Program-made: the position numbers and the translations under genes
Part shown: piece by piece, positions 39,952-57,943 of the stretch
Layout: each line of letters begins with the position of its first letter
Numbering within the stretch: position 1 is the first letter of the stretch
The notes under the pieces: model-generated
The model's input: the letters and a program-made list of their open reading frames with translations, nothing else
Told to the model about the DNA's origin: nothing
The model's database searches: none
IMG/VR virus record: IMGVR_UViG_3300024344_000001
Reading direction: 5' to 3' (one strand)
From: a virus
Lineage: Duplodnaviria > Heunggongvirae > Uroviricota > Caudoviricetes
Length of the DNA stretch: 64,000 nucleotides

Positions 39952-40376
39952 AGTAGCTCCTTATTCTCGTGAATGTTTCCAATAACCCTAAATCGTTTAG
40001 AGGTAGTATCAGACAGACCGTAACCAGATGCCCCCCATCGAGATTCATCAGTTTTACAAAGGGTTAGACAGTTAGTAGATTCTAATCTACGTACTACTCT
40101 GAACTGATCTCGCTCTTTTCTATTGCAGGCGACTCCTGCATACTTAGAGCCTAGAATATCGCCCTCATAGATCTCAACGCCGTTCTTGTCTTCAAATCCC
40201 GTCCACTGTTCAATAAGCCATTCATCGTCGCTAAAAACAACATCAAACGGATAACCGACTTCTGGATCATCTAACATTGTAAAGTGCGGTAGGTCATCAA
40301 CCATATCATGAATGAATTTATGGGGTTTACCCAGGGCGAAGTCTCCCGCATACCATGCTCTAAACTTAAGTTTCAT
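39948..40376 (-). CDS. YopX-family protein
   Basis: MKLKFRAW...QWTGFEDKNGVEIYEGDIL...VIGNIHENKELL. Confidence 0.92.
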   Translation of the reverse strand: MKLKFRAWYAGDFALGKPHKFIHDMVDDLPHFTMLDDPEVGYPFDVVFSDDEWLIEQWTGFEDKNGVEIYEGDILGSKYAGVACNRKERDQFRVVRRLESTNCLTLCKTDESRWGASGYGLSDTTSKRFRVIGNIHENKELL

Positions 40377-42871: not shown

Positions 42872-43308
42872 AGTTCTCCCAACCTTCCTAATAGATCACA
42901 AATGCTATCCACCTCCAGGGCTGGTTTTAGACCGGTAAGTCTATAGAGTTCTCTACTCTCTTCTGGACTCTTAGTAATGAACTTAGTGTCCTGAGAGATA
43001 TGTAGCAAGCCTACCAGATTTTTCTCTTCTGGATTGAAGAGGTGGTATAAGCGAAACTTGTTTACGGCGGCTCTTGATATTTCACAAGTATCAAAGGTGG
43101 TAGAGATCAGAATGCCCGTAAAGTGCCAGATATCGGTACTATTAAACATACCGAAGTTGGTGTCTACAGGGTTACGATCTACGTCGTTATAGAAAACAAC
43201 TCCCTCTGAGATACTTTCACTAGTTAGTGCCTCATTAAGGCACGTAAATATTTCCTGATTCACTTCAGAATCATTGATTGCGGGGATAAAGAATCCTACG
43301 TTATACAT
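42868..43308 (-). CDS. Hypothetical protein of the glycan operon
   Basis: Coupled to fcl; alpha/beta pattern. Confidence 0.55.
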   Translation of the reverse strand: MYNVGFFIPAINDSEVNQEIFTCLNEALTSESISEGVVFYNDVDRNPVDTNFGMFNSTDIWHFTGILISTTFDTCEISRAAVNKFRLYHLFNPEEKNLVGLLHISQDTKFITKSPEESRELYRLTGLKPALEVDSICDLLGRLGEL

Positions 43309-44227
43309 TCACATTCTCCAAGTACCACGCGATAGTCTTTTTCAGACCATCACGTAAGTTTGTTTGTGCAGTAAATCCAAGTCTTTCCTGAGCACGATCA
43401 GTGTTCAAGCATCTTCTTGGTTGCCCGTCTGGCTTACTAGTATCCCACAAAAGATGACCATCATATTCCATCAACGCACATATTTCTGTAACTAAAGTCT
43501 TAATAGTAACTTCATGTCCTGTTCCAATATTGATTGGTTCTGGACCCGGATCACTAACAATAGCTTTTAGAATCGCATCGCAACAGTCTTCTACATAGAG
43601 AAATTCTCTTGAAGCTGCTCCAGTTCCCCACAACGTAACGTTTGGGTTATCATTTTTCATTGCCTGAGAAACCTTAACAATTATCGCTGGGATAACATGG
43701 GAATTGTTAAGGTTAAAATGATCATGCGGGCCATACATATTTACGGGGATCAGGTTGACTCCATTGAAGTCATACTGTGCGTGATAGGCTTTTACTGTCT
43801 CCATAAGCATCTTTTTAGCGATGCCATAGGGGGCATTAGTTTCTTCTGGATATCCATCCCATAATTCAGCCTCACAAAATGGGACAGTGGTATGCTTAGG
43901 ATAGGAGCATACCGTTCCTAACATAATGAATTTGGCCCTGGGTGCCCATACACGAGTAGCCTCAATCATGTTGAGGCCCATTACGGCGTTTTCGTATATG
44001 AATTTACCTGGGTTCTTCTGATTGGCACCAATACCGCCTACGCTACCAGCGGCATGGATTACGATATCAATCGCCCTACCTTGTAGGGATTGTTCAGCGA
44101 AAAATATCTTCCTTAGATCCGTGTGAGAGGAAGGGGCATACACATGATACCCCTCGCTCTCCAGTTTCTTAGTAAGATTACGCCCTAAGAACCCATTACC
44201 CCCAGTTAAGAGGACTCTAGGATTCAT
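43301..44227 (-). CDS. fcl: GDP-L-fucose synthase
   Basis: TGGNGFLG, VGGIGAN, YPEETNAPYGIAKK, PVNMYGP, SHVIPA, WGTGAASREFLYVED, KPDGQPRR. Confidence 0.95.
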   Translation of the reverse strand: MNPRVLLTGGNGFLGRNLTKKLESEGYHVYAPSSHTDLRKIFFAEQSLQGRAIDIVIHAAGSVGGIGANQKNPGKFIYENAVMGLNMIEATRVWAPRAKFIMLGTVCSYPKHTTVPFCEAELWDGYPEETNAPYGIAKKMLMETVKAYHAQYDFNGVNLIPVNMYGPHDHFNLNNSHVIPAIIVKVSQAMKNDNPNVTLWGTGAASREFLYVEDCCDAILKAIVSDPGPEPINIGTGHEVTIKTLVTEICALMEYDGHLLWDTSKPDGQPRRCLNTDRAQERLGFTAQTNLRDGLKKTIAWYLENVNV

Positions 44228-44855
44228 CTACTTCCTCCCCAAACCAGTCTGAGCGGTCTCCTGATGGATTAGGAAAGTCACCAGTAGGAGCATGTTCTTC
44301 CATTTCTACTTCTACTTCAATAGGGAAGTCCGCTGGTCGATAATACGGAGTTCTCTTTCCTAGATCAACAATGTCTTCTCTGGAGAGGTCTGTGGAAACC
44401 TTTTCAGTTTGAGGTACACTAACCTGTGTAATAACATCGCCCACATTACTGTATACAATAATGGTTGGCTTACAGTCATCAAGATACACAAAGTCATTGA
44501 ATACACCAGCATGAGCATGAATAGGTGAGGTATTACGGCGTTTTAGACTACCGCCCTCATTTTCCTCAACGATGACTGCCGTGGTATCATTGATATACTC
44601 AATACCGGCGTCCATACCCATCTTGTCACCTGCGAAGATAACAATGTCTGGTACAATATCGTCCAACTCGTCCTTTTCTTCCCATAGAACCACATTGAGA
44701 AAACTCAGTGAGTGTTTCACATAGTCCCTAACGCCGTTATCCATTCCAACTATCAGTACATATAATAGGGCGTCGTTATCTGATTCATATTTCTTTACAT
44801 CACTAGACAGGGCCGTAAGGGCCTGGTGTGTTACGTATTCAAGCTTAGTTACCAT
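44217..44855 (-). CDS. Hypothetical protein with a C-terminal tail-tube-derived segment
   Basis: Overlaps both neighbours; N-terminal alpha/beta region; VSTDLSREDIVDLGKRTPYYRPADFPIEV matches the tail tube protein. Confidence 0.7.
   Translation of the reverse strand: MVTKLEYVTHQALTALSSDVKKYESDNDALLYVLIVGMDNGVRDYVKHSLSFLNVVLWEEKDELDDIVPDIVIFAGDKMGMDAGIEYINDTTAVIVEENEGGSLKRRNTSPIHAHAGVFNDFVYLDDCKPTIIVYSNVGDVITQVSVPQTEKVSTDLSREDIVDLGKRTPYYRPADFPIEVEVEMEEHAPTGDFPNPSGDRSDWFGEEVDES
44274..44399 (-). repeat. Diverged 126-nt copy of tail tube segment 3763-3888
   Basis: Gapless 42-codon alignment, 27 identical residues. Confidence 0.92.
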
Positions 44856-45633
44856 TTTGAAACTCCTTGAAGAATGGGCAGTCTATCTGCCAGGGTTTGA
44901 AATCGTACCAATAATGATTGATACATACAGGTAGGAATACACTTTCGGGCATAGTAGGTCTACTTACTTTATTATATGGGTTGAGTAAGTAGTTCTTGGA
45001 CTGTAGTCCCGCACAGTGATTCCACTCATGTCCCACTTTTGGGTGGGTATAGTCATAACCAATATGTTTGAAGTATTGGTATAACAGGGCCTGGTCCGTC
45101 CCAGGAATAATGTAGTTTGAGCCGTGTTCTTCGAACACGCTTAGGATTTTCTCGAAGTCTAACAGGGAAGGGTCTGAGACGACCTGTACGCCGCTATTCA
45201 AAAACGAAAATGGGATCTGGGCAGTATGCCCCTCAACCTTTTCATGATTTACCATAATGACGGGCTGGTCCTTGGAGCATTCCACAAGGTGGCTCAGATC
45301 TTCGAAGATAATCGCATCGGCGTCCACAAAGATAAAGGGTTCTGTTTCTCTACACAAATTGTAGAGTTTGAATCCAATATTATGAAGTGCCTTAGAGTCC
45401 CATTCTATGCGGTCATTGTAATCTTTTAGGTCAAAAGTGTTTTTAGGTATATGTGTTACACTTTTTTCCTTTCCATTGGATTCTGGCCACCTTATAGGGT
45501 AATCTTCAGTTTGATTGTGCCATATTTCTATATTTAGATCTACAGCATACTTACGGGCTTGATGTAACCACCACGCACATAAATTTATGTAATTTTCTTC
45601 TTTTGGGAAGTTGAAAATCGTTATCAGTTTCAT
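44845..45633 (-). CDS. GT-A glycosyltransferase, GT8-like
   Basis: FIFVDADAIIF, LNSGV, GTDQALL, WN, HYW motifs. Confidence 0.78.
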   Translation of the reverse strand: MKLITIFNFPKEENYINLCAWWLHQARKYAVDLNIEIWHNQTEDYPIRWPESNGKEKSVTHIPKNTFDLKDYNDRIEWDSKALHNIGFKLYNLCRETEPFIFVDADAIIFEDLSHLVECSKDQPVIMVNHEKVEGHTAQIPFSFLNSGVQVVSDPSLLDFEKILSVFEEHGSNYIIPGTDQALLYQYFKHIGYDYTHPKVGHEWNHCAGLQSKNYLLNPYNKVSRPTMPESVFLPVCINHYWYDFKPWQIDCPFFKEFQNGN

Positions 45634-46880
45634 TTGTTTTCACATTCAAAAATATGTATATATGGCCACTGATCAAATCCCTTGATAGATTTTGTAATCT
45701 TGAATCTTTCACCAAGAATACTTGTCCATTCTTCAAAGTTGAAGTTTGATAAATGTAGTTCGTATCCACATTTCTTATCTGATCCAGAAGCGACTAAAAA
45801 CAGAAAGTGGTCAGACACTGAAGATAAGCACTCAAGCACTTCATCTAGACATAAGGGCGGGATATGTTCCAACACATCTGTGCAATAAACAGCGTCATAT
45901 CTTATATCTCTTTTACAGTACGTTACTATGTCTTCGTTAAAATAATTTACGTCTGAAAGATATTTGTCACAACAAACTTTACTTATTTCTACGCCGGTCA
46001 CAGAACAAACGTGTGGAGCAACGGCACGAATATATTCACCACGTCCACAGCCAGTGTCAAGAATACTACCAGCCTGCTCGCACCACCCTACAACATAGTC
46101 TATCTTGGCTTGGTGTGGTTTTGCATATCCAGTATCTTCTTCATAAACCTTATTGTAAACACCCTGTTCATCAGCCTTATTTCTCCAATCAGAATGATGC
46201 TTATGATATACATAACAACTCTTTTCCCAAAGAAGTTTTGTGGATTGATCACGCTCTATGAGTCGTAACTGCCAATCATCTTCACATCCCCCAAAAGGAA
46301 AAGAGGGATTAAAATAGTAATTATCATTATGCATTGCGGTAATCAAGCTGTTACGATTAGTCGCCCAAAAAAATCCATGTATCATCGGTGGGGTTTTAGG
46401 GAGTTTTTCTACAGTTTCACACTTTGTGTTTCGATTAGTACATCTCTGCATCCTTGATTGATATTGATTTGCACCACCAGGATTTGATGATGGCCCAAGA
46501 ACAAAACTTCCATTAAGTGAATGAAGACACTTGAAGAACTGCTCTATAGACTGATCCAATACAACGTCATGATTAGAAAATATAAAATACTTATATGAAT
46601 TAATGTATTTTTGTACAACAATCTCCCACGCTCCAGTTAGGCCGTTTGTCTTTCTTTGATTATTAGACTTGTGGAGTGTATATAATGGATCTTTTTCCAC
46701 TGGAATATCTGACTCATTATCGAACACAATAATATCAACGTTATAGAAAACGAAGATATCATGGTACTTTTTAATGGATCTTATTAGTTCAAGAAAATCT
46801 TCTCTCCTATTGTGTGTAACAATCACAAAGCATATCTTGTCATTTTTCATTTGATCCACTCCGGTTTTGTGTCTGCACAA
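45630..46880 (-). CDS. GT2-like glycosyltransferase fused to a class I SAM methyltransferase
   Basis: VIVTHNRREDF...FSNHDVV...GCEDDW; C-terminal ILDTGCGRG...YDAVYCTDVLEHIP. Confidence 0.8.
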   Translation of the reverse strand: MCRHKTGVDQMKNDKICFVIVTHNRREDFLELIRSIKKYHDIFVFYNVDIIVFDNESDIPVEKDPLYTLHKSNNQRKTNGLTGAWEIVVQKYINSYKYFIFSNHDVVLDQSIEQFFKCLHSLNGSFVLGPSSNPGGANQYQSRMQRCTNRNTKCETVEKLPKTPPMIHGFFWATNRNSLITAMHNDNYYFNPSFPFGGCEDDWQLRLIERDQSTKLLWEKSCYVYHKHHSDWRNKADEQGVYNKVYEEDTGYAKPHQAKIDYVVGWCEQAGSILDTGCGRGEYIRAVAPHVCSVTGVEISKVCCDKYLSDVNYFNEDIVTYCKRDIRYDAVYCTDVLEHIPPLCLDEVLECLSSVSDHFLFLVASGSDKKCGYELHLSNFNFEEWTSILGERFKITKSIKGFDQWPYIHIFECENK

Positions 46881-47230
46881 ATTCCTGCAATTTTACCATT
46901 CCAATATACTTCTGGGTATTTCCAAATAATACCATAAGATGTAATGGTACAAAAGTCTGCTTCGTGCCAGAAGCAATGTAGTTTATTCATTGTACCAAAC
47001 TGTAGGGCCAGTAGATTCTTAGCATGACAGATGAACTTAGGGTTCTTTAGGAACTGTAGGTCAATTGGGTACTGAGGGAAGTCATGCCCTGTATAAAGCC
47101 CCTTACCAATTAACCAGTAATCCAACTCTACGTATGTAGAGACCTGGGTAGATTGAATCAGATACTCTGGAGAGTTTTCCAGTGCCTCATTCTTTCCCGC
47201 TACGTTACCCCTATGACTAATGAACCACAT
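46847..47230 (-). CDS. GDPD/PLC-like phosphodiesterase-domain protein
   Basis: ISHRGN...EN...VELDYW...GHD...HAKN. Confidence 0.7.
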   Translation of the reverse strand: MWFISHRGNVAGKNEALENSPEYLIQSTQVSTYVELDYWLIGKGLYTGHDFPQYPIDLQFLKNPKFICHAKNLLALQFGTMNKLHCFWHEADFCTITSYGIIWKYPEVYWNGKIAGICADTKPEWIK

Positions 47231-47657
47231 ATTTGTCTCCTATTACACTTGGGACTTTGACAGTCACAACGATACAGTCTTCTATGAAGTGCGGCTTGAC
47301 GGTCTCACCCGGCTCAATAATGAACATTTCTCCTGATACCAAGTATTGATCACCTATTCTCATGGAGCCTTGTATTAGTACATTGTATTTGGAGTCTGGT
47401 AGAATAGCATTAGCGGTCTCCAAGGAGTCTGTACGAACTTCCGTAAAGATCTTACTATACGTAGGGAACATACTAGTCCCCAATTCGATCATAGAAGGCT
47501 TCGCCGGTAGTGTCTCTAGAACCTTGAGAAACTCGCTAATTTGGAAGGTTTCCTTATTCCAGTCGGCAGCGTTCTGTATGTACTCTTCAGTTCTACCCAC
47601 GGAACGGTGGATATTGTCATGGGATTTCTTGTATTCCGCAAGAATTTCCTTATTCAT
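47217..47657 (-). CDS. Apparent chimera: methyltransferase-like N-terminus plus cupin C-terminus
   Basis: PSMIELG motif followed by VLIQGSM...GEMFIIEPGE...VVTVKVPS..DKY. Confidence 0.45.
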   Translation of the reverse strand: MNKEILAEYKKSHDNIHRSVGRTEEYIQNAADWNKETFQISEFLKVLETLPAKPSMIELGTSMFPTYSKIFTEVRTDSLETANAILPDSKYNVLIQGSMRIGDQYLVSGEMFIIEPGETVKPHFIEDCIVVTVKVPSVIGDKYVVH

Positions 47658-48370
47658 TACATTCCCCTCTTCTTGTGCGGAATATGATAGTTCCAGTTAG
47701 TTGATTGAACATTTGGTTCCCACACGTCTCTTGCGAAGTCTTGACGATTAATCAAGTGTTTGTATAACAGGCTTTCTGCGTGTAACGGCGATCCATTCGG
47801 ATCAGTGTTTGGAGTAATTAATTTTGGGTTATAGTATCTATCTAGATGCCCATACAGATCGCAGTACATAACTATGTCTAACGTACTACCAAAGGCCAGG
47901 TGATCACAAATCTGTAGGTTACTCTGATCTGGTACATGTAGTGCAGGACGTAAAAGTTCATCTGCTGGAATACTTTCCTCAAACATGATATCAGGGCGAG
48001 CTTTAATCACAAGATCATATTCTTTACCAGTAACAGTTACAAGACTACCACCTAGATAAGTCTTACGAAACATATTGACTATGTTGGAGATAGGTACTGT
48101 ATGATTAGTGGCGGCGAAGCGACTAACGTCGATTTCTACTTGCTTAGGGTCTTCTACGCAAATCGCCGCAGGTCTGTACTTTTCCATAACGTCCGTTATG
48201 TCAAGCTGTTCTTCAGTATCGAACTGGTAGCGGCCCGTATTCAATCCCAGGTTAGTCCAGGTATGAATGAATACGTCTGGTTGTAGATCTTGCAGGATGT
48301 ACTTATCGAAGTTGTCATAAACTTCCCTATACTCCCTGAATTGGCCTGTCAGTATAATGGCTACGTTCAT
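47657..48370 (-). CDS. Putative glycosyltransferase
   Basis: VAIILTGQFR...DVFIHTW...YDLVIKARPDI...DHLAFG...ESLL, a pattern common in phage glycan clusters. Confidence 0.6.
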   Translation of the reverse strand: MNVAIILTGQFREYREVYDNFDKYILQDLQPDVFIHTWTNLGLNTGRYQFDTEEQLDITDVMEKYRPAAICVEDPKQVEIDVSRFAATNHTVPISNIVNMFRKTYLGGSLVTVTGKEYDLVIKARPDIMFEESIPADELLRPALHVPDQSNLQICDHLAFGSTLDIVMYCDLYGHLDRYYNPKLITPNTDPNGSPLHAESLLYKHLINRQDFARDVWEPNVQSTNWNYHIPHKKRGM

Positions 48371-49235
48371 CGCTTAAAAGTTCTTTCCAATAAGGAGAAT
48401 AGATGCAATCATCTAAATCTGGTTTTTTGAATAGTCTCTCAACATGATCAAGTGAGTTACAGAGCATACTTAACTCTGACCAGTCATCCATGAAAACAAT
48501 TGGATACTTATCTCTCTTGAAATCTCGGTAACACTCATGATACTTGGTAACAGGAATACAGCCCATATACATAGCTTCCCAGAGTCTGTGAGTATCAATA
48601 CCAGCACCCCACGGACATAGAATAAACTTGTACCTGGATGCTTTATTGAAATAGTCTCTTACGAAAGCATCATTCTCTCTATCTCCACGCTGAACCTGTC
48701 TAACGTCCAACATACCACCAAAGGCCCTGTGGGCCATATTGAGACAAGTAGTTCTCTCCCCAATGTTATTATGCATAGAGAATGAGGCTAACAGAGTCTT
48801 ATTCTTTCTTACGGCGGCTCGCCCTGCATAGGTCAATGGATCACTCTGTATGTTACCATTATGACGCCAGTGCAAATTTTGAAGACCCAGTGGGATCGGT
48901 ACTATCTTTTCATGCACAATATTTGCATTGATAGTAAACCACTTAACCAGATGGCGAGAGAAGAGAGGGATTAACGACTCATCTGGTCCAGCGTCCCACT
49001 GGGCAGTAATAACAAAAAACGGGACATCGATAGCTGGGGCTATCTTAGTGAAAAATTCTTTTACCTTGACTCCTGTTACGTATAGAATATCTCCGGGTTG
49101 TACCCCCTGTGGATTGATACCGTGACATACTTTTTGCATGTGCGTAGTATCGCCAGGGTCACAAATTGCGTGATCAGCAAACGTGCGGTAGGTATAACCG
49201 CTTAAATATGGAGCACTAGAAATGTTTTCAAACAT
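48327..49235 (-). CDS. Exostosin-like glycosyltransferase (GT47-like)
   Basis: YKFILCPWGAGIDTHRLWEAMYMGCIPV. Start set at MFENISS, which overlaps the upstream TGA. Confidence 0.75.
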   Translation of the reverse strand: MFENISSAPYLSGYTYRTFADHAICDPGDTTHMQKVCHGINPQGVQPGDILYVTGVKVKEFFTKIAPAIDVPFFVITAQWDAGPDESLIPLFSRHLVKWFTINANIVHEKIVPIPLGLQNLHWRHNGNIQSDPLTYAGRAAVRKNKTLLASFSMHNNIGERTTCLNMAHRAFGGMLDVRQVQRGDRENDAFVRDYFNKASRYKFILCPWGAGIDTHRLWEAMYMGCIPVTKYHECYRDFKRDKYPIVFMDDWSELSMLCNSLDHVERLFKKPDLDDCIYSPYWKELLSDERSHYTDRPIQGV

Positions 49236-49971
49236 CTTCTTCTTCTTCATACCAGGTCTTGATATCTTCCATAGCTTCATCAGAAACAATTAGATTACCA
49301 GACCCGACTTTGTTCTTTATTAAATTTTCTACATAAAAATCGCCCTCAATAACCCTACGGTTATCCAAAATCGCAGCCCCTGGTTCTTCATAGAACTTAA
49401 TTTTTATGTTTTTCATATTCTCGTCACGAATACTCTTCTCTTCTTCTGTCATAGGTTTTTTGTACTGAATAGTCTCAGTTTTCTTACAGTTCCAACAGGT
49501 GCTGGTTTTAATACCATCATCTGGAACAAATGACGTAGAAAAAGACGGAGAGGTATATTCATCCTCACACCCGCAGTAATCCGTAAACTCCATCCCTAGA
49601 TGCTCATGAACGGCCTTACCAATAGCTACTGTTCCCCAACCATGACCAGTAACACACAATCTATGTAGAGTAGGTGCTAACCAGCTTTGCGGGATACGGC
49701 TATCGGTAATAATACCAATTTGAAATGGGTAGATTTTTGACCTATCGCCCCAACCATAACACTCGTCGTGGAAGATAGTTACCTCAATGTGACCAATATC
49801 TGGATGGTTTTTAACCCATTCTTTGAGGTTTTCTGCCCACATATTACAGATGTACGGACCCGTATTGATGACCATATAATTACCAAAGGATAAGGGATAC
49901 TTAGTTCCCCCGATACCCACACATGACATCATACCAACTTTTGGCTCGAACTTTTTGGTTTCTTTTCTCAT
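49228..49971 (-). CDS. Hypothetical protein
   Basis: 247 aa with a CWNC motif; tiled in the operon. Confidence 0.6.
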   Translation of the reverse strand: MRKETKKFEPKVGMMSCVGIGGTKYPLSFGNYMVINTGPYICNMWAENLKEWVKNHPDIGHIEVTIFHDECYGWGDRSKIYPFQIGIITDSRIPQSWLAPTLHRLCVTGHGWGTVAIGKAVHEHLGMEFTDYCGCEDEYTSPSFSTSFVPDDGIKTSTCWNCKKTETIQYKKPMTEEEKSIRDENMKNIKIKFYEEPGAAILDNRRVIEGDFYVENLIKNKVGSGNLIVSDEAMEDIKTWYEEEEDV

Positions 49972-50231
49972 TTTTCTTTCCTTGAGAGATACCTCAAAAA
50001 CATACCGGAACAGGATTCATCAGTAAGCAGCAGACCAATAAGTTGTTCTTCCTTAGCGGCCTCATACAGCATAGGTACATACAACGCAGGAAATTGTCCC
50101 ACAAGATCCATATCCCAAACATCTTTACCTGTTAAGTAGGTAGGATCATTATCCTCTCCTATGAGGATATCCTGTTCTCTATTCCAATCACCAGCAATCA
50201 CTTCGCACATATCACCGTAGGTCATTGACAA
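49968..50231 (-). CDS. Hypothetical protein
   Basis: 87 aa, tiled in the operon. Confidence 0.5.
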   Translation of the reverse strand: MSMTYGDMCEVIAGDWNREQDILIGEDNDPTYLTGKDVWDMDLVGQFPALYVPMLYEAAKEEQLIGLLLTDESCSGMFLRYLSRKEK

Positions 50232-51024
50232 AATCCTCCCTTGTATCGCAGTTGTAAATTGAGTTCATGTTTTCAGCAGTCAGATCCAGGTTAAAGAACA
50301 TAGCACACAGGGCCACGTTACTAATACCCTTGATAATATGGTCACACTGAGACAGCATAAGGCAATCAATAAGGACATCCTTGCCCTTTTTGTATCCATT
50401 CAACTTATCGCCGTGATGTACTGATATGTTACCAGTAGATCTAATGCAGTCTTTCTGGAAGGAAACTCGCTTCGGGAAGTGTTCCTGCATACATTCTATG
50501 ACTGAGTAGTCATCTGTGGAAAGGAAAATCCGAGATTCCGGGCGATTTTCGAGATATTTTTCGGCGTGCTCGATGTATTTTGAAAGCGGCACGGGTTTAC
50601 CCGTTTCTGGCTCGCCAAACCTGGTACATTCATTTTTATCAGTACGGCGAATGTGCAATCCCAAGGGGTTAGGACCGACTGCTTCTATTAAGTCCGCTAG
50701 GTCTTCTAGGATGTACGGTAGCGGTCTCACGTATTTTTTGATCATTTCGTGCATGGTAACACGAGTTTGGTATTCCCTAGGGAGAATTATATGTGGGTGG
50801 TTTATTAGTTTCTCCCCATGTGAGGGGAAATCTACTTCAAAGTACCATTCCCACACATTACTTCCAAACTGATCGTGCATAGACCAATCGTCGTAAATAG
50901 TATTAGTCCAGAATGGGAACGGGGCTGAATCAGGAACTGACTCACACGCCGTAAAAGCACCTACTGTGCCACGGAATACTGAGAAGAAACCTGCATCACT
51001 CCCTGGTATTACTAGTTTAGTCAT
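50212..51024 (-). CDS. Fucosyltransferase, NodZ/GT23-like
   Basis: AGFFS, LGLHIRRTDK, IFLSTDD, VLIDCLMLSQCDHIIKGISNV. Confidence 0.82.
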   Translation of the reverse strand: MTKLVIPGSDAGFFSVFRGTVGAFTACESVPDSAPFPFWTNTIYDDWSMHDQFGSNVWEWYFEVDFPSHGEKLINHPHIILPREYQTRVTMHEMIKKYVRPLPYILEDLADLIEAVGPNPLGLHIRRTDKNECTRFGEPETGKPVPLSKYIEHAEKYLENRPESRIFLSTDDYSVIECMQEHFPKRVSFQKDCIRSTGNISVHHGDKLNGYKKGKDVLIDCLMLSQCDHIIKGISNVALCAMFFNLDLTAENMNSIYNCDTREDFVNDLR

Positions 51025-51571
51025 AATTAACGCTCGATGGTCTACCGTAAATGTATTCTAATCCGTTCAGTATGTCTTTTGTCACCCAGGGCTTCGGAGA
51101 TCTAGGTTGCTCTTTTGGGAAGTTGATTATGAAATTCAGTTGTTCCCGTAGCATACGCTGAGGATAATATTCCCATATTGAGTCATAGTCCAAGTACATG
51201 GATTGTTCTCTGTACCCGTATTGTTCTAATTGGGCCAGCCACCTAAACTGGTGATCCAAAAGACCAAACAAGTCTTTTTTAGAGGCTACGTACTCTCTGA
51301 TATCATCAGGAACAGTAGGGACTTCCAGGTTGTCACAGTGCTGCTCCAGGAAGCGAGTATGTCCAGAGTAATGTTTTCCGTAAAAAGACAAAACGGAGTC
51401 TACGGGGTTACCATGAAGGTATATCATACACTCGTCTTTATCGAGAGTATCAGGAAATACCATTCTATGAACAGCAGATTGATCATTAGTGTAAAACCCA
51501 TTAGAGTCCAACCACTTATGAAACATTCGGGTGCCACACCCACCAGAACTATACAGGTAAACCTTTTTCAT
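51017..51571 (-). CDS. Sulfotransferase-like protein
   Basis: SSGGCGTRMF (5'-PSB-like loop), IYLHGNPVDSVLSFY (3'-PB-like motif), YLDYDSI. Confidence 0.55.
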   Translation of the reverse strand: MKKVYLYSSGGCGTRMFHKWLDSNGFYTNDQSAVHRMVFPDTLDKDECMIYLHGNPVDSVLSFYGKHYSGHTRFLEQHCDNLEVPTVPDDIREYVASKKDLFGLLDHQFRWLAQLEQYGYREQSMYLDYDSIWEYYPQRMLREQLNFIINFPKEQPRSPKPWVTKDILNGLEYIYGRPSSVNYD

Positions 51572-52286
51572 GATTTCTCACTATCTCTTGTATGTGTCGA
51601 TAAAGTTCGTCATGCTTACAATAACTCTCCCAGAACATCCTACCTTCTGCCGACATAGCTAACCTTTGACCTGTAGACATTTCTTTCGCTTTTCTGATCA
51701 ATTGCGGTAGGATTTTTAGTTCGCCCCTAATACACATCTTATCCCAGTCTACCACATTAGAGAATGGGTAGTCGTTCATTCCCGTAACAATCGGGATAGA
51801 TCCAACCATAAAGGCCTGGTATAGACGGAAAGATGAGGAACCAATACCTCGTGGACAAAAGGTAAACTCACAAGCACTTGTAGCAAGTAGATATGCTTTA
51901 ATCTTCTCACGTTTTTCCTCCGTAGGTAAATTGTAGATCGGATTAGTATCTTCAAACAGATAATTCTCTAGATCCAAGTGGGCCAAAACCTGCCGTCCAG
52001 CGTAGTTAGCTTGACCGATAAAACCAAATTCATAGGAGGGTGGTGGTAATCTGCACAGATCTTCATTTTCAATTAAACGCGGCCACTCGTCCGTCATCAT
52101 CAGGGGCACTGGGACCACTCTGGCACGTTTATTCTGTTCAGGGCCGTATATCGGCTGAGCCACAAATGAGATATCATGGTACGTATAAGCTATGAGGGGA
52201 TTATCGTCATTCAGATAAATGTACTTTTCACCGTCAACCTCCGTATACTTGTCATATACAAAAGGGCGACCAATCTCGCTAGTCAT
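51549..52286 (-). CDS. Exostosin-like glycosyltransferase (GT47)
   Basis: FGFIG...FTFCPRGIGSSSFRLYQAFMVGSIPIV...PFSNVVDW. Confidence 0.82.
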   Translation of the reverse strand: MTSEIGRPFVYDKYTEVDGEKYIYLNDDNPLIAYTYHDISFVAQPIYGPEQNKRARVVPVPLMMTDEWPRLIENEDLCRLPPPSYEFGFIGQANYAGRQVLAHLDLENYLFEDTNPIYNLPTEEKREKIKAYLLATSACEFTFCPRGIGSSSFRLYQAFMVGSIPIVTGMNDYPFSNVVDWDKMCIRGELKILPQLIRKAKEMSTGQRLAMSAEGRMFWESYCKHDELYRHIQEIVRNHEKGLPV

Positions 52287-53040
52287 TTGTTATTCTTTCT
52301 TTTGGGAAACCAAGCTCTTTTCTCTTAGCGTAGATTATACCATCCCGCCCCGAAAATTGCAAGGTTTTTCTCGCCGCAAAGTCGATTTTTCCCGAATTTC
52401 TGTTCCCATCTTCCGCATAGTGCTCATGTCCAAACAGGGTTCTATCAATATAGGTAACGGAGTTTAGGGCGTTTACGGCGTCTGTGAACTCATTATCGCA
52501 GTAGAGAGACTTGTAATCTGGGTGGTAGATATACCCAAAGTGCTCATACAGGGATTTACCCATAATGGAGAAGGTAATCAAGTTACCAACATCGCGGCCA
52601 TCCTTATAAGTGATACAACCGGCTAATTCTGGATAGTACGTCTCCATATCAGTAGCAATGATATCATCCCATAGGTCTTCATACGGAATCATATCATCCG
52701 AAGCACAAATGACAATATCGAAGTGAGTCATATCAATATGGGAATTTATGGCACTAATCTTCTCCGTACCTTTATCGAAGAAGATATCATACATAGGGGC
52801 ATGTGTGCATTCCTGCTGTTGCCTAAAAACCATTGCCTCAATAGCTTTAGTAACTGACGGAGCCTGCATGGACAAGTCATCTTTATCACAGATGATGTTA
52901 AATATCACCATATGTCTACCACTGAGGTTCTTTAGGTATAGTTCAAATACCTCAAGAAACTGCTTAGGGCGACCTAGAGTTGGAAATTGTACAAGGATAT
53001 TAGCCAAGGTTTGCTCCTGTATTATCAAGTGCTTGCTCAA
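52279..53040 (-). CDS. GT-A glycosyltransferase, GT2-like
   Basis: FPTLGRP...KISAIN...ASDDM...YIYHPDYKSLYCDNEFT. True start probably the TTG at 53007 after AGGAG. Confidence 0.75.
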   Translation of the reverse strand: MSKHLIIQEQTLANILVQFPTLGRPKQFLEVFELYLKNLSGRHMVIFNIICDKDDLSMQAPSVTKAIEAMVFRQQQECTHAPMYDIFFDKGTEKISAINSHIDMTHFDIVICASDDMIPYEDLWDDIIATDMETYYPELAGCITYKDGRDVGNLITFSIMGKSLYEHFGYIYHPDYKSLYCDNEFTDAVNALNSVTYIDRTLFGHEHYAEDGNRNSGKIDFAARKTLQFSGRDGIIYAKRKELGFPKERITND

Positions 53041-53872
53041 GTTGCTTGTTCTTCAAATTTCGTACTAGTCGTGCTGTACGTGTGAAAGCATTGTGCTTCT
53101 TCAGGATCTGTTCTTTGATTACGCCCCCAATACTATCAGACTTCTGCTCACTGAATAGTGTACCTAAGAACTTCTCGAACTTAGGGCGGTCTTGGTCGTT
53201 GAGTTCAACACGAATAGCCTTCGCCCTGAAAGAAGTCTCAAAGAATAGTTGGGATACTACAACGGGTAGGGCGTCTACCAATACAAATTCCTCGTACTTG
53301 TCATATACACTTACGAGGGCGGGGATATTAACTGGTAAGTCATAACCTGGGGCATCTGATGTAGACAGTAGGTGATAGGTATCCAGACCTTCTGTTACGG
53401 GTTTAATGTTTTCCAGGGGCTGAGAAGATACAATGGCGGTTCCAATACTGAATAATACTGATTCTTCTTTACGCTGAAAGATATCAAGGGCCGGTAGTAG
53501 ATTTACCACCTTAATAGTTCTCCCAAGGATAGGGATTACTCCAGACGGCGTATTAGTGAATAGGAACGGGCAGGTAATTTTGTTCTGAATGAACGTCTCA
53601 GAAATGTTATCAACCATGCTCTGAGTAGCACCCGTAATGTTCACAACAACCGACATATGCGGGTGTTGAGATAGGTACTTCATGATATCTGGGGTGATTT
53701 TAGAAAAGTGGCAGATGAAGACTTCAGGCTGGTATGAATCAAAGATATCATACGCACTTATGTTTTCATCCACCCATATTTCTGCTTCTCCCCCTACTGA
53801 CTTGATTGCTTGTGTGAAGTAAAATGGTTCCGTAGATAGGTTAGAGGAATAATTCTGAATCAGGGTTCTCAT
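53000..53872 (-). CDS. Hypothetical protein, possibly a degenerate GT-B (CgeB-like)
   Basis: YQPEVFICH and C-terminal KKHNAFTRTARLV; weak resemblance. Confidence 0.4.
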   Translation of the reverse strand: MRTLIQNYSSNLSTEPFYFTQAIKSVGGEAEIWVDENISAYDIFDSYQPEVFICHFSKITPDIMKYLSQHPHMSVVVNITGATQSMVDNISETFIQNKITCPFLFTNTPSGVIPILGRTIKVVNLLPALDIFQRKEESVLFSIGTAIVSSQPLENIKPVTEGLDTYHLLSTSDAPGYDLPVNIPALVSVYDKYEEFVLVDALPVVVSQLFFETSFRAKAIRVELNDQDRPKFEKFLGTLFSEQKSDSIGGVIKEQILKKHNAFTRTARLVRNLKNKQLEQALDNTGANLG

Positions 53873-54618
53873 ATTTTCATGCTCTTTCGTAGGGATTTGA
53901 GGTTGTCAACTTTGTTTATCCTTTTCTCGTGATTAACTACTACGGAGACTTCTCTCTTTTCCGCAAGGTTGTTAATGGCCTCGAAAAGAAACTTGTTTTT
54001 GAAGTCTGAGTCAGAAACAATTCTCTGAAAGAGATCTATAGTATCTCTCCCATGTAGGAATATCATTTCTGTCCAGAAGTGTCCTCCAACACCGTATGTA
54101 AGATGACTAAGGTTACCATCTACAATAATACACCCTACCTCAAAATTGCTATCACTTGACTGTGGCTGTACTACTACGGAAGTTTGGTTTACAGACAGCA
54201 TTTCAAGGTGAGCGGGTACTATTTCAATACCGCCGCCCATGATAAGCATTCTTTGGTTCAGGGTGTTATTCACACATAGTCGGGTGCTTTCACAACAGTT
54301 AGAATTGAGATAGATCTGATTCTCGACCATACGAATATCGTCAAGGGGATACTTCTCCCTAATGTAATTACCTATCTTATCAGTCTCAAACCCAGTACAA
54401 ATGATGATTTCATAGTTCTGGTAGGCCGACTTGATAGTATTGATTTGCTTTTCTAAAAGTGTCTTGCCGTGGAGGTTGATTAGTGATATAGGGCCATAGG
54501 ACTTCATTCTATAGCCGTGATTCTCCCCTAGAATAGCAACCGTAATAACTTCCTGTGGTCTTTTGGGCTGCTGTGATTTCTTAGGAGAGACAATGAATTG
54601 CTCTCTACTTCTTCTCAT
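53869..54618 (-). CDS. NTP-transferase-fold protein (LicC / sugar nucleotidyltransferase-like)
   Basis: ILGENHGYRMKSYGPISLINLHGKTLLEKQI...EIIICTGF...VENQIYLNSN. Confidence 0.7.
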   Translation of the reverse strand: MRRSREQFIVSPKKSQQPKRPQEVITVAILGENHGYRMKSYGPISLINLHGKTLLEKQINTIKSAYQNYEIIICTGFETDKIGNYIREKYPLDDIRMVENQIYLNSNCCESTRLCVNNTLNQRMLIMGGGIEIVPAHLEMLSVNQTSVVVQPQSSDSNFEVGCIIVDGNLSHLTYGVGGHFWTEMIFLHGRDTIDLFQRIVSDSDFKNKFLFEAINNLAEKREVSVVVNHEKRINKVDNLKSLRKSMKI

Positions 54619-55409
54619 AGAATAGTGTACATACCGGACTCACTCAATTCTGTAATTACATTGTCAAGCATAGCATCATAGGCTCCGTACTTGAGATATA
54701 TGCTATTCATCATACCGTATGATATGCAGTGGAGGCCAGTATCCTTAAAGAGTACGTATAGTGTTTTTTCAAGATCGTCGTTTAGTAGGTTGTCGATGAT
54801 ACGTAAGGTATCTATGCAAATTATGGTTGAATCTTCCAGAGTTATAACATGGGTGTACCAATCCTTGGCTTTAGACATTACCTCGTATTCTCTATTCGGC
54901 GTTGGTAGATCTGGATGCGATAGAACCAACTGACAGGGAATACCAAATTGCTTCATTACATTAACCTCATGCACTAGTTCTTCTACATCTTCACCTATTT
55001 TACCAGATATTATTACTCCAATCTTTTTAGGATTGTAGTCTAATTTCTTAATAGCATTACAGGCTCTCCAGACATACTTAGCCCCGTGTGTGAAAGAGTC
55101 TAGTACGAACAAGAATCTGGATTCTACTTCCTGTCTGGCTTTATCAATAAAGTCATCTAACATCCAACATGGATAATCGTCAGTAGGACTAGAATCTATA
55201 CACCTTTGTCTCCACTCTTCGTCACGGTACATATTACACATACGTGTAACTAATTCGTAATTAGTCTCTCCGCGTGCTACAAACTTATCTTTTCTCTTTG
55301 TGCAACATGAATTGTAATCTTCTTCGATGAAGATGCACCCTTTACAACTTCTACCTACATAAATATCTTTACCGTTAGTATCTGGGCTTTTTATGATGAC
55401 TTTTTTCAT
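54615..55409 (-). CDS. Hypothetical protein of the glycan cluster
   Basis: CKGCIF..CNMYR Cys motif followed by an alpha/beta region. Confidence 0.55.
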   Translation of the reverse strand: MKKVIIKSPDTNGKDIYVGRSCKGCIFIEEDYNSCCTKRKDKFVARGETNYELVTRMCNMYRDEEWRQRCIDSSPTDDYPCWMLDDFIDKARQEVESRFLFVLDSFTHGAKYVWRACNAIKKLDYNPKKIGVIISGKIGEDVEELVHEVNVMKQFGIPCQLVLSHPDLPTPNREYEVMSKAKDWYTHVITLEDSTIICIDTLRIIDNLLNDDLEKTLYVLFKDTGLHCISYGMMNSIYLKYGAYDAMLDNVITELSESGMYTIL

Positions 55410-55819
55410 CGTCTAACTGTAATTTCATAGTGTACGCCGTTCACGTCATATATCTCTACATTGAGACCCATAGACCTGATTCCATTGAGAACGACGCTGG
55501 TTTTAGTCATAGATCTTTTAAGGGTGATCATATTACCCCATTCAACTTCAGTAAGAGATCCATCCAAGACGCCCTTACAGAATAAGAGAATATCAGTACC
55601 GCCGATAACCAACTTACCACCCATTCGCAGTTTACTGATTAGTGTTTGTACCAGGTCATTTAGTCTACCAAGGTCGAATTCATCAAGAATCTCATTTGCT
55701 AGAATCTCCGTACATTCATTATCGGAGATAGCGGAGAGATCAAACTCTTGATCCTCAACGATGATAGGTACATAACCCGCGATAAACTGTGTATCTTTTT
55801 TTCCAATATGGATCTTCAC
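55406..55819 (-). CDS. Minimal class I methyltransferase-like protein
   Basis: DNECTEILANEILDEF...LISKLRMGGKLVI. Confidence 0.5.
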   Translation of the reverse strand: MKIHIGKKDTQFIAGYVPIIVEDQEFDLSAISDNECTEILANEILDEFDLGRLNDLVQTLISKLRMGGKLVIGGTDILLFCKGVLDGSLTEVEWGNMITLKRSMTKTSVVLNGIRSMGLNVEIYDVNGVHYEITVRR

Positions 55820-56811
55820 GCTTTTCTCCCGTATGCAACGTCAAAAATGTTATTCCAGTTGTCCAGAAAGTCCTGCTCAGAGAACATTTCTTCGATAGTT
55901 GTTCGGGCAGCTTTGCCCAACTTGTCTGCTAACTCTCTATCTTCCAGCAGGGTATCTACAAACCCACGTAGTTGAGCCTCGTCATTGGAAATAAATCCGT
56001 TTACGCCGTGTTCAATAATATCAGGGATCATACAGGTCGCCGTACTAACTACAGGTGTTCCACAAGCCATAGCCTCAAGAAGGCTAGTTGGAATAGGACT
56101 AACTGTACTAGTATTAAGGTAGACTCCACACTTCTGGTACTCGCCAGCTAGTGCTACGATAGATTCTGCTGGCTCTGATAGGCCCTCAGTCTTTCCTACT
56201 ATACGTAAGTTATCCATACCTTCGGTGATATTGCACCAACCCTTGTAGTTACAGCAGTAATCTCGGTTGATAAAGTCGTTCACAACCGTTAGAACTGTGT
56301 TTTCTCTCTTAATGGAACTTAGGTCGAATACATTGGTATCCACAGAATGGTGAATTACGAATGTAGACGGCGAGTTGACCGCCCACTCTTCCATAGAGTG
56401 ATCTGAGATAAATACGTTAATATCTCCTACCATCTGCCTAAACTCATTTAGTTGCTGCTCAGGCCAGTTCTCGATAGGTAGAGTATGCTCCAGGTGGATA
56501 ACGGGCAGTCTCAACATTTGGTTGACCTGGTGTGTTACCTGGAACTGTCCAAACTTTGATTGAGATAGGATAAAATCAAAGTCAATACCGTTAATGATGC
56601 TGTTAGGAGGAAGAGTGTAATAATTATCGGGGGGAACAGCGTAAGCACTATCCCACTCTTTACAATTATCATACCTAAACGCATAGAAATTATGCCCCGT
56701 CTTAGCTAACTGCTGTTGGTATCGCTCGTGTGTATCAAACGTAAGAATGTTGTACTTTTCTTTCGTTGGAAACAGAGCCTTGTTTATAATACTGCTTGTC
56801 TGTCTACTCAT
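55816..56811 (-). CDS. GT4 (GT-B) glycosyltransferase
   Basis: VYLNTSTVSPIPTSLLEAMACGTPVVST...HGVNGF. Confidence 0.88.
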   Translation of the reverse strand: MSRQTSSIINKALFPTKEKYNILTFDTHERYQQQLAKTGHNFYAFRYDNCKEWDSAYAVPPDNYYTLPPNSIINGIDFDFILSQSKFGQFQVTHQVNQMLRLPVIHLEHTLPIENWPEQQLNEFRQMVGDINVFISDHSMEEWAVNSPSTFVIHHSVDTNVFDLSSIKRENTVLTVVNDFINRDYCCNYKGWCNITEGMDNLRIVGKTEGLSEPAESIVALAGEYQKCGVYLNTSTVSPIPTSLLEAMACGTPVVSTATCMIPDIIEHGVNGFISNDEAQLRGFVDTLLEDRELADKLGKAARTTIEEMFSEQDFLDNWNNIFDVAYGRKA

Positions 56812-57943
56812 TCTCTAGTAGTTCCTTCATTCTTTTGCCTACATTGTAGTAGGAGAAGTTCCTAATCATTTCTGTAGTACAGGATACCCTCTCCTGCTTA
56901 AACTTTATGGGATTCTTTGTATACTCAGTGAATGCAAATCTCATAGCCTTCTTAATATCAGGCTCAGATGGTACAAACCAGTTCTCACGGCCCGTAAAGA
57001 TAAACGGAAAAGCGGCGTCCGTACATTCACATACTGTGTAGTCACCCATTATTTTGTGACCAGCCTTAGAGGCCGTAATAAACTCTTGTGGACCGCCATG
57101 ATCTGATGTGATTACGTAATTACCAAACGCGGCAGCGTCAAAAGTAGGAATAGACCAGGCCTCACCATGAGTAGCAGACACAAAACAGTCGCCGTATTGA
57201 TGTAAGGCACATATTTGATCATCTGTGATATCCTCTGTAATAGTGATTTCGTTGTGATAGTCAGTAATGTTCCTATACATTCTAAGCTTAGACTTGATAT
57301 CAAAGATCTTTTGATCCATGATTTGTCTTAGTTGATCTGATGAATGACCAAATTTTCTTACCTTTAAGATAAAACAAACAGGCTCAGACGGATTGAATTC
57401 ACTGTGGAAACAGCGAATCATAGAGTCGAGGTTCTTCCTGTCGTTTAGGTCACCAATGTAATAGAACTTGAACTTACCTTCCGATTGATCGATATGAATC
57501 GGCTCGTACTTCTTCTTGTACCTATTTTCATCACATGGGTGGTGAACCACATGAATACTCTTATTGTCTATTCCGTCTTGCGATAGGTGTTCCTTCATTC
57601 TTCTATTAGGAACCCATACTTCGGTACCTAGCTGAAGATGTTCAAACCACGCCACATGCTTAATACTAGTAGACTCAAGCTCCGTAAAGACAATGTTCTT
57701 CTTAAACTTATCAGTTCCCACTAGGTGGTGAGGAAGAATATGCTGAATCAGGTGCGTGCAATCCGCCGTATCCTTAGCTTCTAACTCCAGAATACGTGGA
57801 TGTACATTTTCCCGATCTTGTGTAAGGGTGATATTGCGACATACAACATCTACTCCTACATGATCAAGGGCGAGAATCTGAGAGGTAGCGGCAGTTGCCC
57901 ATCCCCCATCTTCCTTATAATGTCCAATGTACAATACTTTCAC
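56804..57943 (-). CDS. GT4 (GT-B) glycosyltransferase
   Basis: FYYIGDLNDRKNLD...DCFVSATHGEAWSIPTFDAAAFG..VI. Confidence 0.88.
   Translation of the reverse strand: MKVLYIGHYKEDGGWATAATSQILALDHVGVDVVCRNITLTQDRENVHPRILELEAKDTADCTHLIQHILPHHLVGTDKFKKNIVFTELESTSIKHVAWFEHLQLGTEVWVPNRRMKEHLSQDGIDNKSIHVVHHPCDENRYKKKYEPIHIDQSEGKFKFYYIGDLNDRKNLDSMIRCFHSEFNPSEPVCFILKVRKFGHSSDQLRQIMDQKIFDIKSKLRMYRNITDYHNEITITEDITDDQICALHQYGDCFVSATHGEAWSIPTFDAAAFGNYVITSDHGGPQEFITASKAGHKIMGDYTVCECTDAAFPFIFTGRENWFVPSEPDIKKAMRFAFTEYTKNPIKFKQERVSCTTEMIRNFSYYNVGKRMKELLENE

What the first reader, a model, noticed from the sequence alone, without database searches (positions are those of the whole stretch)
44217..44855. A glycan-operon protein carries a conserved 42-aa copy of part of the major tail tube protein
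Seen: residues at 44399-44274 (-), VSTDLSREDIVDLGKRTPYYRPADFPIEVEVEMEEHAPTGDF, align without gaps to tail tube 3763-3888, ISTDFSREDILELGRKTPYYRPAGFPIEVTCEIEAITTSGDF. 27/42 residues are identical and most others are conservative (L/V, E/D, RK/KR). 12 of the 27 identical residues use different codons, which suggests selection on the peptide rather than a fresh DNA duplication. The gene lies 40 kb away on the opposite strand, overlaps both the GT8-like gene and fcl, and the rest of the protein is unrelated. Known: tube proteins polymerise through a long beta-hairpin loop, and the sirtuin defence DSR2 is triggered by phage tail tube protein and blocked by the competing phage protein DSAD1. Inference: this segment is the loop region of tube domain 2. 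The protein could be (a) an adaptor docking the glycosylation machinery onto tails, (b) a chain terminator that poisons tail assembly of related co-infecting phages, or (c) a decoy for a tube-sensing defence. I know of no described system like this.
Basis: partly seen in the sequence, partly recalled or inferred. Interest (0 to 1): 0.88.

Follow-up and report, generated by a model that had tools for sequence, protein, structure and literature searches.

The report
Tail-tube loop copy in glycan-operon protein
One uncultured large phage has a small enzyme-like protein in its sugar-modification operon whose floppy tail carries an old, in-frame copy of the loop that the phage's tail-tube subunits use to lock onto each other. 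The copy is real and looks selected, but no other genome searched has it and its function is untested.

Summary
ORF212 (44217-44855, minus strand) residues 153-194 match residues 247-288 of the 373-aa protein at 3025-4146 (27/42 identical, no gaps, BLASTP E 3e-17). By fold, internal duplication and position before the tape measure, the 373-aa protein is a T5-pb6/P74-26-type two-domain tail tube protein. The copied piece is the subdomain-2 strand, long loop and strand.

ORF212 is a Rossmann-type, methyltransferase-like domain (1-148) plus a disordered acidic tail. Its rare family always sits between a glycosyltransferase and an fcl-like gene. All nine relatives lack the insert, 34 related phage genomes have no extra-tube copy, and five near-complete relatives lack the gene.

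The copy is not recent. Synonymous sites are saturated, and no sampled tube gene is a closer donor. The loop half looks constrained (dN/dS about 0.07, mostly conservative changes). The strand half is drifting (about 0.8).

My best reading (about 45%) is a selected docking peptide that mimics the tube's long loop. A tolerated recombination scar from an unsampled donor remains a serious rival (about 38%). Interest is moderate: this is a single case with no functional evidence. The notes of this scan that I saw report nothing like it on other DNA.

The parts
44217..44855 (-). ORF212, 212 aa, the gene carrying the insert. The start at M1 is supported by N-terminal conservation in relatives.
44412..44855 (-). 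N-terminal alpha/beta domain (residues 1-148). Rossmann-type, closest to class-I methyltransferases. The only part conserved in the family.
   Evidence: pLDDT 78-93; Foldseek E 4e-4; VIA Z 8.2; alignment A3
44313..44399 (-). Loop half of the tube-like insert (residues 153-181). 22/29 identical to the tube, 6 of the 7 changes conservative, dN 0.16 and dS 2.3.
44274..44312 (-). Strand half of the insert (residues 182-194). 5/13 identical, dN 0.57 and dS 0.71; core-facing tube residues replaced by acidic or polar ones. Ends in GGT GAC TTT, identical in both genes.
44241..44279 (-). Ancestral tail motif DFP..PSG..DWF (residues 193-205), shared with relatives P0004 and P0005. It overlaps the right border of the insert.
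3025..4146 (+). 373-aa T5-pb6/P74-26-type tandem-domain major tail tube protein.
3763..3888 (+). Tube residues 247-288: end of a strand, long loop (low pLDDT 254-261), next strand of subdomain 2. The counterpart of the insert and one of the most conserved stretches of the family.
3109..3240 (+). Paralogous strand-loop-strand element of tube subdomain 1 (residues 29-72).
6487..11991 (+). Tape measure protein, 1834 aa. Positional support for the tube assignment.
   Evidence: phrog_28 E 1.6e-31
43301..44227 (-). fcl-like NAD-dependent epimerase/reductase (best match GDP-L-fucose synthase, below the curated cut-off). The downstream neighbour in all five relatives whose downstream gene was scored, and in this window.
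44845..57943 (-). Upstream part of the glycan operon: weak GT8-like, GT2+methyltransferase, two GT47/RXYLT1-like, FUT8/NodZ-like, two GT1 genes and unannotated ORFs.

Best explanation
ORF212 is an accessory protein of the phage's fucose-type glycan operon. It has a compact Rossmann-fold, methyltransferase-like domain and a disordered acidic C-terminal arm. In this phage lineage alone, the arm has captured in frame a copy of the subdomain-2 long loop, plus the following strand, from a T5-pb6-type tail tube gene. In such tubes this loop is disordered in the free subunit and inserts into a neighbouring subunit on assembly. I propose that the copied loop is kept by selection as a docking peptide. 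It would occupy the loop-binding site on tube subunits, or bind whatever other partner recognises that loop. That would bring ORF212, and perhaps the neighbouring sugar enzymes, to tail tube protein before or during polymerisation. Shown: the capture, its uniqueness, its age, and the uneven constraint along it. Inferred: that it binds anything, and what that is.
For: The match is far beyond chance and has sharp borders. The source element is the long loop of tube subdomain 2. The long loops of T5 pb6 are essential for tube formation (PMC5717097), and in P74-26 the loop works as a loop-in-socket contact (PMC10034513). The insert lies in a predicted disordered arm (pLDDT about 40), where a peptide is free to dock. 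Synonymous sites are saturated (pS 0.645 to the genome's own tube; mean 0.705 to 55 tubes, equal to tube-versus-tube 0.70), while dN is 0.27. If the genome's own tube was the donor, neutral decay over that distance predicts about 11/42 identities; 27/42 or more never occurred in the simulated sequences that kept an open frame (about a quarter of 4000). Replacements are more conservative than simulated neutral drift with the same number of first- and second-position changes (P 0.005). Constraint is uneven: the loop half has dN/dS about 0.07 and the strand half about 0.8 (Fisher P 0.02-0.035). That is the pattern expected if the loop is used and the strand no longer packs into a beta-sandwich. 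The segment's divergence by codon position (74/83/45% identity) resembles that of the constrained N-domain between this phage and P0004 (82/86/47%). The family tails are acidic and variable, with short conserved aromatic motifs, which suits interaction arms.
Against: It is a single case. All nine family relatives lack the segment. No second carrier turned up among 116-371-aa proteins of the 5.8-billion-protein collection, and scans of IMG/VR and JGI metagenome contigs for its ORF212-specific 11-residue core found none. 34 related phage genomes have no extra-tube copy. So conservation across genomes and co-variation with the tube cannot be tested. The family's core function clearly does not need the segment. 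If the donor was an unsampled foreign tube gene and the capture was recent (0.25 substitutions per site or fewer), identity alone does not reject neutrality (P 0.37). What remains are post-hoc pattern tests on 42 codons. No binding evidence exists. Strain variation that could give population-level dN/dS was absent.
Confidence: 0.45

Rival explanations
1. Tolerated recombination scar. A fragment of a tube gene, most likely from a co-infecting or ancestral relative, was inserted in frame by illegitimate recombination into a hypervariable disordered tail. The reading frame is kept only because the downstream C-terminal motif is needed. The segment has no tube-related function.
For: Only this genome has it. 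The tails of the family vary freely in length and sequence, including a roughly 70-aa insertion in P0126. A 9-nt identity (GGT GAC TTT) lies at the right border, where relatives already have D-F-P, which fits a microhomology junction. Neutral drift of 0.25 substitutions per site or fewer from an unsampled donor reproduces 27/42 identity (P 0.37). The genome holds a second unrelated 49-aa shared fragment, so fragment sharing is not unique here.
Against: With the genome's own tube as donor, neutrality is rejected. Replacements are too conservative (P 0.005). The rate differs between the loop and strand halves (P 0.02-0.035). None of 120 tube proteins and 80 tube loci is closer than 28/42 aa or 86/126 nt.
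Confidence: 0.38
2. Assembly regulator or poison. The loop copy plugs the loop-binding site of tube subunits to hold them unassembled (chaperone-like timing control) or to block tail assembly of competing related phages.
For: The long loops are required for polymerisation in T5 (PMC5717097). Free P74-26 subunits need control of loop and socket to avoid off-pathway assembly (PMC10034513). Same sequence evidence of constraint as for the main explanation.
Against: The loop is almost invariant across more than 2000 tube homologs, the phage's own included, so a plug could not tell self from competitor. The gene sits in a glycan operon and not among the tail genes. Relatives manage without it.
Confidence: 0.08
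3. Immune decoy. The segment titrates a host sensor that recognises tail tube protein, by analogy with DSR2 and the competing phage protein DSAD1.
For: Tube-sensing defences and competing phage proteins exist (PMC10973363, seen only as title and abstract). Accessory genes of phages are often anti-defence genes.
Against: Only an unfolded 42-aa piece of a beta-sandwich is present. Whether any sensor reads this loop is unknown. The operon context is sugar metabolism. No similarity to any anti-defence family was tested or found. The host is unknown.
Confidence: 0.05

Closest known systems
Long loops of the T5 pb6 tail tube protein (beta3-beta4 and beta13-beta14) and the loop-and-socket contacts of the P74-26 tail tube protein
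   Same: The source of the copy is the equivalent strand-long loop-strand element of subdomain 2 in a tandem-domain tube protein. The element has low confidence in the monomer model and is highly conserved, as expected for an assembly contact (PMC5717097; PMC10034513).
   Different: Here a copy of the element sits outside any tube fold, in the disordered tail of an unrelated enzyme-like protein 40 kb away on the other strand. I found no description of that in the papers I searched.
Virion glycosylation in mycobacteriophages (Freeman et al. 2023, as summarised in PMC12619734)
   Same: Phage-encoded glycosyltransferases that modify capsid and tail tube subunits. This gives a precedent for a functional link between a phage sugar operon and the tail tube.
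   Different: There the glycans sit on C-terminal ends of the subunits, and the summary I read describes no substrate-mimicking adaptor. Here glycosylation of the tube is not shown at all. I could not read the primary paper.
Shared short targeting peptides in virus and compartment assembly (T4 capsid-targeting sequences, encapsulin cargo-loading peptides); from my own knowledge, not checked here
   Same: A short peptide copied onto otherwise unrelated proteins directs them to one assembly site. This is the mode of action I propose.
   Different: Those peptides are dedicated tags. This one is a copy of an internal structural element of the assembly's own building block.
DSR2 - tail tube protein - DSAD1 (PMC10973363)
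   Same: A phage protein that competes with tail tube protein for a binding partner.
   Different: I know of no sequence mimicry of the tube in that system. No evidence links ORF212 to any defence system.

Membership tests
T5 pb6 / P74-26-type tandem-domain major tail tube protein (for the 373-aa protein) | Tail-tube beta-sandwich fold | tested here: met
   Foldseek versus PDB: 8hqz_p, 8xan_A, 9iny_A, 8hrg, 8ed0_A, 7qg9_A at E 2.6e-8 to 4.6e-7, TM 0.42-0.53, followed by single-domain tube, Hcp and PVC proteins. Model pLDDT 73, pTM 0.76.
T5 pb6 / P74-26-type tandem-domain major tail tube protein (for the 373-aa protein) | Two tube subdomains in one chain (internal duplication) | tested here: met
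   Residues 29-86 align with 239-306, E 0.003. In 12 related genomes the subdomain-2 loop query also hits about 600-770 nt upstream in the same ORF.
T5 pb6 / P74-26-type tandem-domain major tail tube protein (for the 373-aa protein) | Long loop in each subdomain, unstructured in the free monomer | tested here: met
   pLDDT below 50 at 53-60 and 254-261, between paired strands. This is a prediction, not a structure.
T5 pb6 / P74-26-type tandem-domain major tail tube protein (for the 373-aa protein) | Gene placed upstream of the tape measure gene | tested here: met
   Tape measure at 6487-11991.
T5 pb6 / P74-26-type tandem-domain major tail tube protein (for the 373-aa protein) | Polymerises as trimeric, pseudo-hexameric rings | not testable with these tools
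   Needs electron microscopy or biochemistry.
Tail tube protein family (for ORF212) | Possesses the tube fold or full-length homology | tested here: not met
   Only residues 149-194 match. The rest is a Rossmann-type domain. ORF212 is not a tube protein.
Class-I SAM-dependent methyltransferases (for the ORF212 N-domain) | Rossmann-like methyltransferase fold | tested here: inconclusive
   Foldseek E 4e-4 to 1e-2 to METTL21D, spermidine synthase, METTL16 and WbdD. VIA Z 8.2 to METTL15 and the sugar O-methyltransferase SpnH, within the range the tool calls common. The Atlas also lists receiver domains.
Class-I SAM-dependent methyltransferases (for the ORF212 N-domain) | Match to a curated family profile | tested here: not met
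   No Pfam, PHROG or NCBIfam hit.
Class-I SAM-dependent methyltransferases (for the ORF212 N-domain) | Glycine-rich SAM-binding motif I (GxGxG) after the first strand | tested here: inconclusive
   The sequence there reads V-G-M-D-N-G. Only G37 and D39 are near-invariant in the family. Cofactor binding is untested.
Phage virion-glycosylation systems | Phage-encoded glycosyltransferases and sugar-nucleotide enzymes | tested here: met
   GT1 x2, GT2+methyltransferase, GT47-like x2, FUT8/NodZ-like, fcl-like.
Phage virion-glycosylation systems | Glycans attached to virion proteins such as the tube | not testable with these tools
   Needs virion mass spectrometry or glycan staining. The operon could instead act on host surface glycans or on DNA.
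Anti-defence decoys of tube-sensing systems (DSAD1-like) | Homology to a known anti-defence protein, or binding to a sensor | not tested
   No anti-defence library was available. No family hit of any kind for ORF212.

The most novel reading that the evidence does not exclude
A phage modification enzyme has copied the polymerisation loop of its own tail-tube subunit and uses it as a plug for the subunit's loop-binding socket. This tethers the glycan or methyl-modification machinery to tube protein, and possibly delays polymerisation, so that subunits are modified before they are buried in the tail. It would be a self-mimicry adaptor of a kind not described for phage assembly.
Probability: 0.3. 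Interest if true: 0.75.

Novelty: new variant of a known kind. Interest (0 to 1): 0.42.

Why it matters
If the copied loop really docks on tube subunits, it would show how a phage can aim an accessory enzyme at a virion building block by borrowing that block's own assembly contact. It would also provide a natural peptide that engages the loop-binding site of T5-type tail tubes, useful for studying or controlling tube polymerisation. And it would link a large, unexplained phage glycan operon to a concrete substrate. If it is only a scar, it is still a clean, datable example of in-frame gene-fragment capture in a disordered protein tail.

Tried and rejected
1. Complex prediction of the tube protein with ORF212 residues 140-212 returned no verdict (score 0.01, controls not run). 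It is no evidence either way.

2. Search for a closer donor: 120 tube proteins and 80 tube loci are all 22-28/42 aa and 79-86/126 nt from the segment. None was found.

3. Search for other carriers:
- a degenerate DNA pattern for the ORF212-specific core found nothing in IMG/VR or the JGI metagenomes;
- a segment-only protein search returned only the protein itself, in the 116-371 aa range only;
- deposited phage records gave no match for either protein;
- a relatives scan of IMG/VR with the three-sequence profile found nothing, and the ten-sequence one was too diverse to run.

4. Idea that the relatives' tails are decayed copies of the same loop. A recurring D-L-S-x-x-D-x-L-x-L-G motif resembles the start of the loop, but:
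- shuffle tests gave P 0.014-0.42;
- the tube-segment HMM scored 1.4 bits or less, as with shuffles;
- P0004's tail against the tube profile had probability 0.1%;
- a profile of the relatives' tails did place its best hit exactly at tube 249-264, but with P 0.077.
I kept this as an unexplained hint, not evidence.

6. Population variants: the public runs hold only identical copies of the region, and X3 covers only fragments outside the segment. No pN/pS was possible.

7. ORF212-family gene in five near-complete related genomes: none found, with a working positive control.

8. The Atlas feature search gave no usable hit.

9. The primary paper on virion glycosylation was not held.

Full report
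**Observation**

- BLASTP gives one ungapped match, ORF212 149-194 to 243-288: 28/46 identical, E 3e-17. Nothing else in the two proteins matches.
- Against a 43-sequence profile of the 373-aa family the tail scores E 5.5e-19.
- DNA identity is 85/126 in the 42-codon core (31, 35 and 19 of 42 by codon position). It is 30/120 in the flanking 20 codons on each side.
- In the genome (a 154,328-base IMG/VR virus record, estimated 93% complete) the segment occurs only at these two places. The pair is one of nine paralogous pairs in an all-against-all comparison.
- A contig from a different sample and study is identical across the region. With only 67% DNA identity to the tube gene, a chimeric assembly is excluded.

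**What the 373-aa protein is**

No Pfam or NCBIfam model matches it, and the only PHROG hit is marginal (phrog_985, E 0.0049). It has over 2000 metagenomic homologs.
- An AlphaFold model built on 43 homologs (pLDDT 73, pTM 0.76) matches the tail tubes of T5, DT57C, P74-26 and SH-Ab15497 at Foldseek E 2.6e-8 to 4.6e-7. Single-domain tube, Hcp and PVC proteins follow.
- The two halves of the protein align with each other (29-86 with 239-306, E 0.003).
- In 12 related genomes a query made of the subdomain-2 loop also hits about 600-770 nt upstream in the same ORF.
- An 1834-aa tape measure gene follows after three small ORFs.

So this is a pb6-type tandem tube protein. Residues 247-288 are the end of a strand, a 23-residue loop with low confidence at 254-261, and the next strand of subdomain 2. 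They lie in one of the most conserved stretches of the family.

In T5 pb6 the equivalent long loops are unresolved in subdomain 1 of the crystal structure and held by crystal contacts in subdomain 2. They are modelled into the EM density of the assembled tube, and deleting them abolishes tube formation (PMC5717097). In P74-26 the loop inserts into a socket of another subunit (PMC10034513).

**What ORF212 is**

Its model has a confident alpha/beta domain (1-148, pLDDT about 78-93) and a disordered tail (150-212, pLDDT about 40). The tail has 18 acidic and 6 basic residues out of 64.
- The domain resembles class-I methyltransferases, but weakly: Foldseek E 4e-4 and upward (METTL21D, spermidine synthase, METTL16, WbdD), AlphaFold DB clusters likewise, and VIA Z 8.2 to METTL15 and the sugar O-methyltransferase SpnH.
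- There is no profile hit and no clear GxGxG motif. I call it methyltransferase-like, not a methyltransferase.
- The family is rare: ten representatives among 1.84 billion proteins.
- In all five relatives with context the gene lies directly upstream of an fcl-like epimerase, or of its cut start. Two of them (P0005 and P0126) show a Pfam-scored glycosyltransferase upstream. The downstream 146-aa and roughly 256-aa genes are also shared with this window.
- In the window the operon holds GT1, GT2+methyltransferase, GT47-like, FUT8/NodZ-like and weakly GT8-like genes. The epimerase's best match is GDP-L-fucose synthase.

**Who else has the segment**

Nobody.
- Only the first 148 or so residues align across the family. 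The tails differ in length and sequence.
- A tube-segment HMM gives 69 bits on ORF212's tail and 1.4 bits or less on the nine relatives, which is shuffle level.
- The closest relative's tail has 0.1% probability against the tube profile.
- P0127, which I infer from equal contig lengths to lie on the contig that carries tube homolog P0009, shows no tail-to-tube similarity.
- Pattern scans of IMG/VR and the JGI metagenomes, and a segment-only protein search, found no other carrier.
- In 34 related phage genomes the loop occurs only within the tube gene.
- Five near-complete relatives have no ORF212-family gene (positive control).

**Age and selection**

No sampled tube gene is a closer donor (22-28/42 aa and 79-86/126 nt for 120 proteins and 80 loci).
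- Synonymous sites are saturated: pS 0.645 to the genome's own tube (dS 1.48), and mean 0.705 to 55 tubes, the same as tube versus tube (0.70). dN is 0.27, so pairwise dN/dS is 0.18.
- If the donor was this genome's own tube, neutral decay over half that distance predicts about 11/42 identities. 27/42 or more never occurred among the simulated sequences that kept an open frame.
- If the donor was an unsampled foreign tube and the capture was recent (0.25 substitutions per site or fewer), identity alone is compatible with neutrality (P 0.37).
- Two pattern tests then remain. Replacements are more conservative than simulated drift (P 0.005). The rate differs along the segment: the first 29 codons (the loop) have 7 changes, 6 of them conservative, with dN 0.16 and dS 2.3. 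The last 13 codons (the strand) have 8 changes, with dN 0.57 and dS 0.71 (Fisher P 0.035 for residues, 0.019 for first and second positions).
- The strand's core-facing residues have become acidic or polar. That fits a peptide that no longer packs into a beta-sandwich while its loop is still used.
- As a calibration, the constrained N-domain differs between this phage and P0004 by 82/86/47% identity per codon position, close to the segment's 74/83/45%.

**Origin**

The right border is a 9-nt identity (GGT GAC TTT). Relatives already have D-F-P there, followed by the shared PSG..DW motif. The insert therefore replaced or entered an ancestral tail, possibly at a microhomology.

**Interpretation**

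I favour a selected loop mimic that serves as a docking peptide on a disordered arm. It would most plausibly bring this glycan-operon protein to tube subunits (confidence 0.45).
- The precedent for a sugar-operon link to the tube is virion glycosylation in mycobacteriophages, which I know only as summarised in PMC12619734.
- The scar reading stays close behind (0.38), because there is one genome, 42 codons and post-hoc tests.
- A polymerisation poison aimed at competitors is unlikely, since the loop is nearly invariant across the family, self included.
- A decoy role has no support.
- The one complex prediction gave no verdict and counts for nothing.

**Novelty**

I found no description of a tube long-loop copy outside a tube protein in the searches I could run. 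It is best classed as a new variant of known kinds: fragment capture and peptide mimicry or targeting. Interest is moderate.

Noticed in passing
L094 (G000:C1:131282-133174, minus) residues 307-355 and L095 (G000:C1:139930-140562, minus) residues 7-55; outside the window: A second ungapped fragment (31/49 identical, E 4e-20) is shared by two otherwise unrelated, unannotated proteins of 630 and 210 aa in the same genome. It may be another shared docking peptide or another fragment capture.
   Followed up: partly
window 42868-44855 (-) and loci L001, L002, L086, L087: Conserved gene string in unrelated contigs: ORF212-family gene, fcl-like epimerase, a 146-aa gene, then genes of about 256-261 aa. 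A glycosyltransferase lies upstream where it was scored. The ORF212 family looks like a fixed partner of the epimerase.
   Followed up: partly
L086:5375-6565 (+): A 396-aa product with a recorded Pfam RuBisCO_large hit lies inside the glycan operon of a related phage contig, a few genes upstream of the ORF212-family gene.
   Followed up: no
tails of P0004, P0005, P0126, P0128 (alignments A3, A4): A recurring tail motif D-L-S-x-x-D-x-L-x-L-G/K resembles the start of the tube long loop (D-F-S-R-E-D-I-L-E-L-G). A relatives-only profile puts its best hit exactly at tube 249-264, but with P 0.077. Not significant and unexplained.
   Followed up: yes
window 11991-23444 (+): A 3817-aa ORF directly follows the 1834-aa tape measure, followed in turn by 567-, 1587- and 1158-aa ORFs. 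The three of these that were scanned (567, 1587, 1158 aa) gave no PHROG match.
   Followed up: no
window 50212-51024 (-) and 43301-44227 (-): A FUT8/NodZ-like fucosyltransferase and an fcl-like GDP-fucose synthase lie in one operon, which suggests a fucosylated product. Its target (virion, host envelope or DNA) is unknown.
   Followed up: no
window 42101-42871 (-) and 39948-40376 (-): A DUF559/Vsr-type endonuclease-like gene with an N-terminal HTH, and a YopX-family gene, lie just downstream of the glycan genes.
   Followed up: no
window 43301-45633: The region is held, letter for letter, in contigs of two subsurface metagenome runs from different samples and studies, and in fragments of a third. 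No strain variation is visible.
   Followed up: yes
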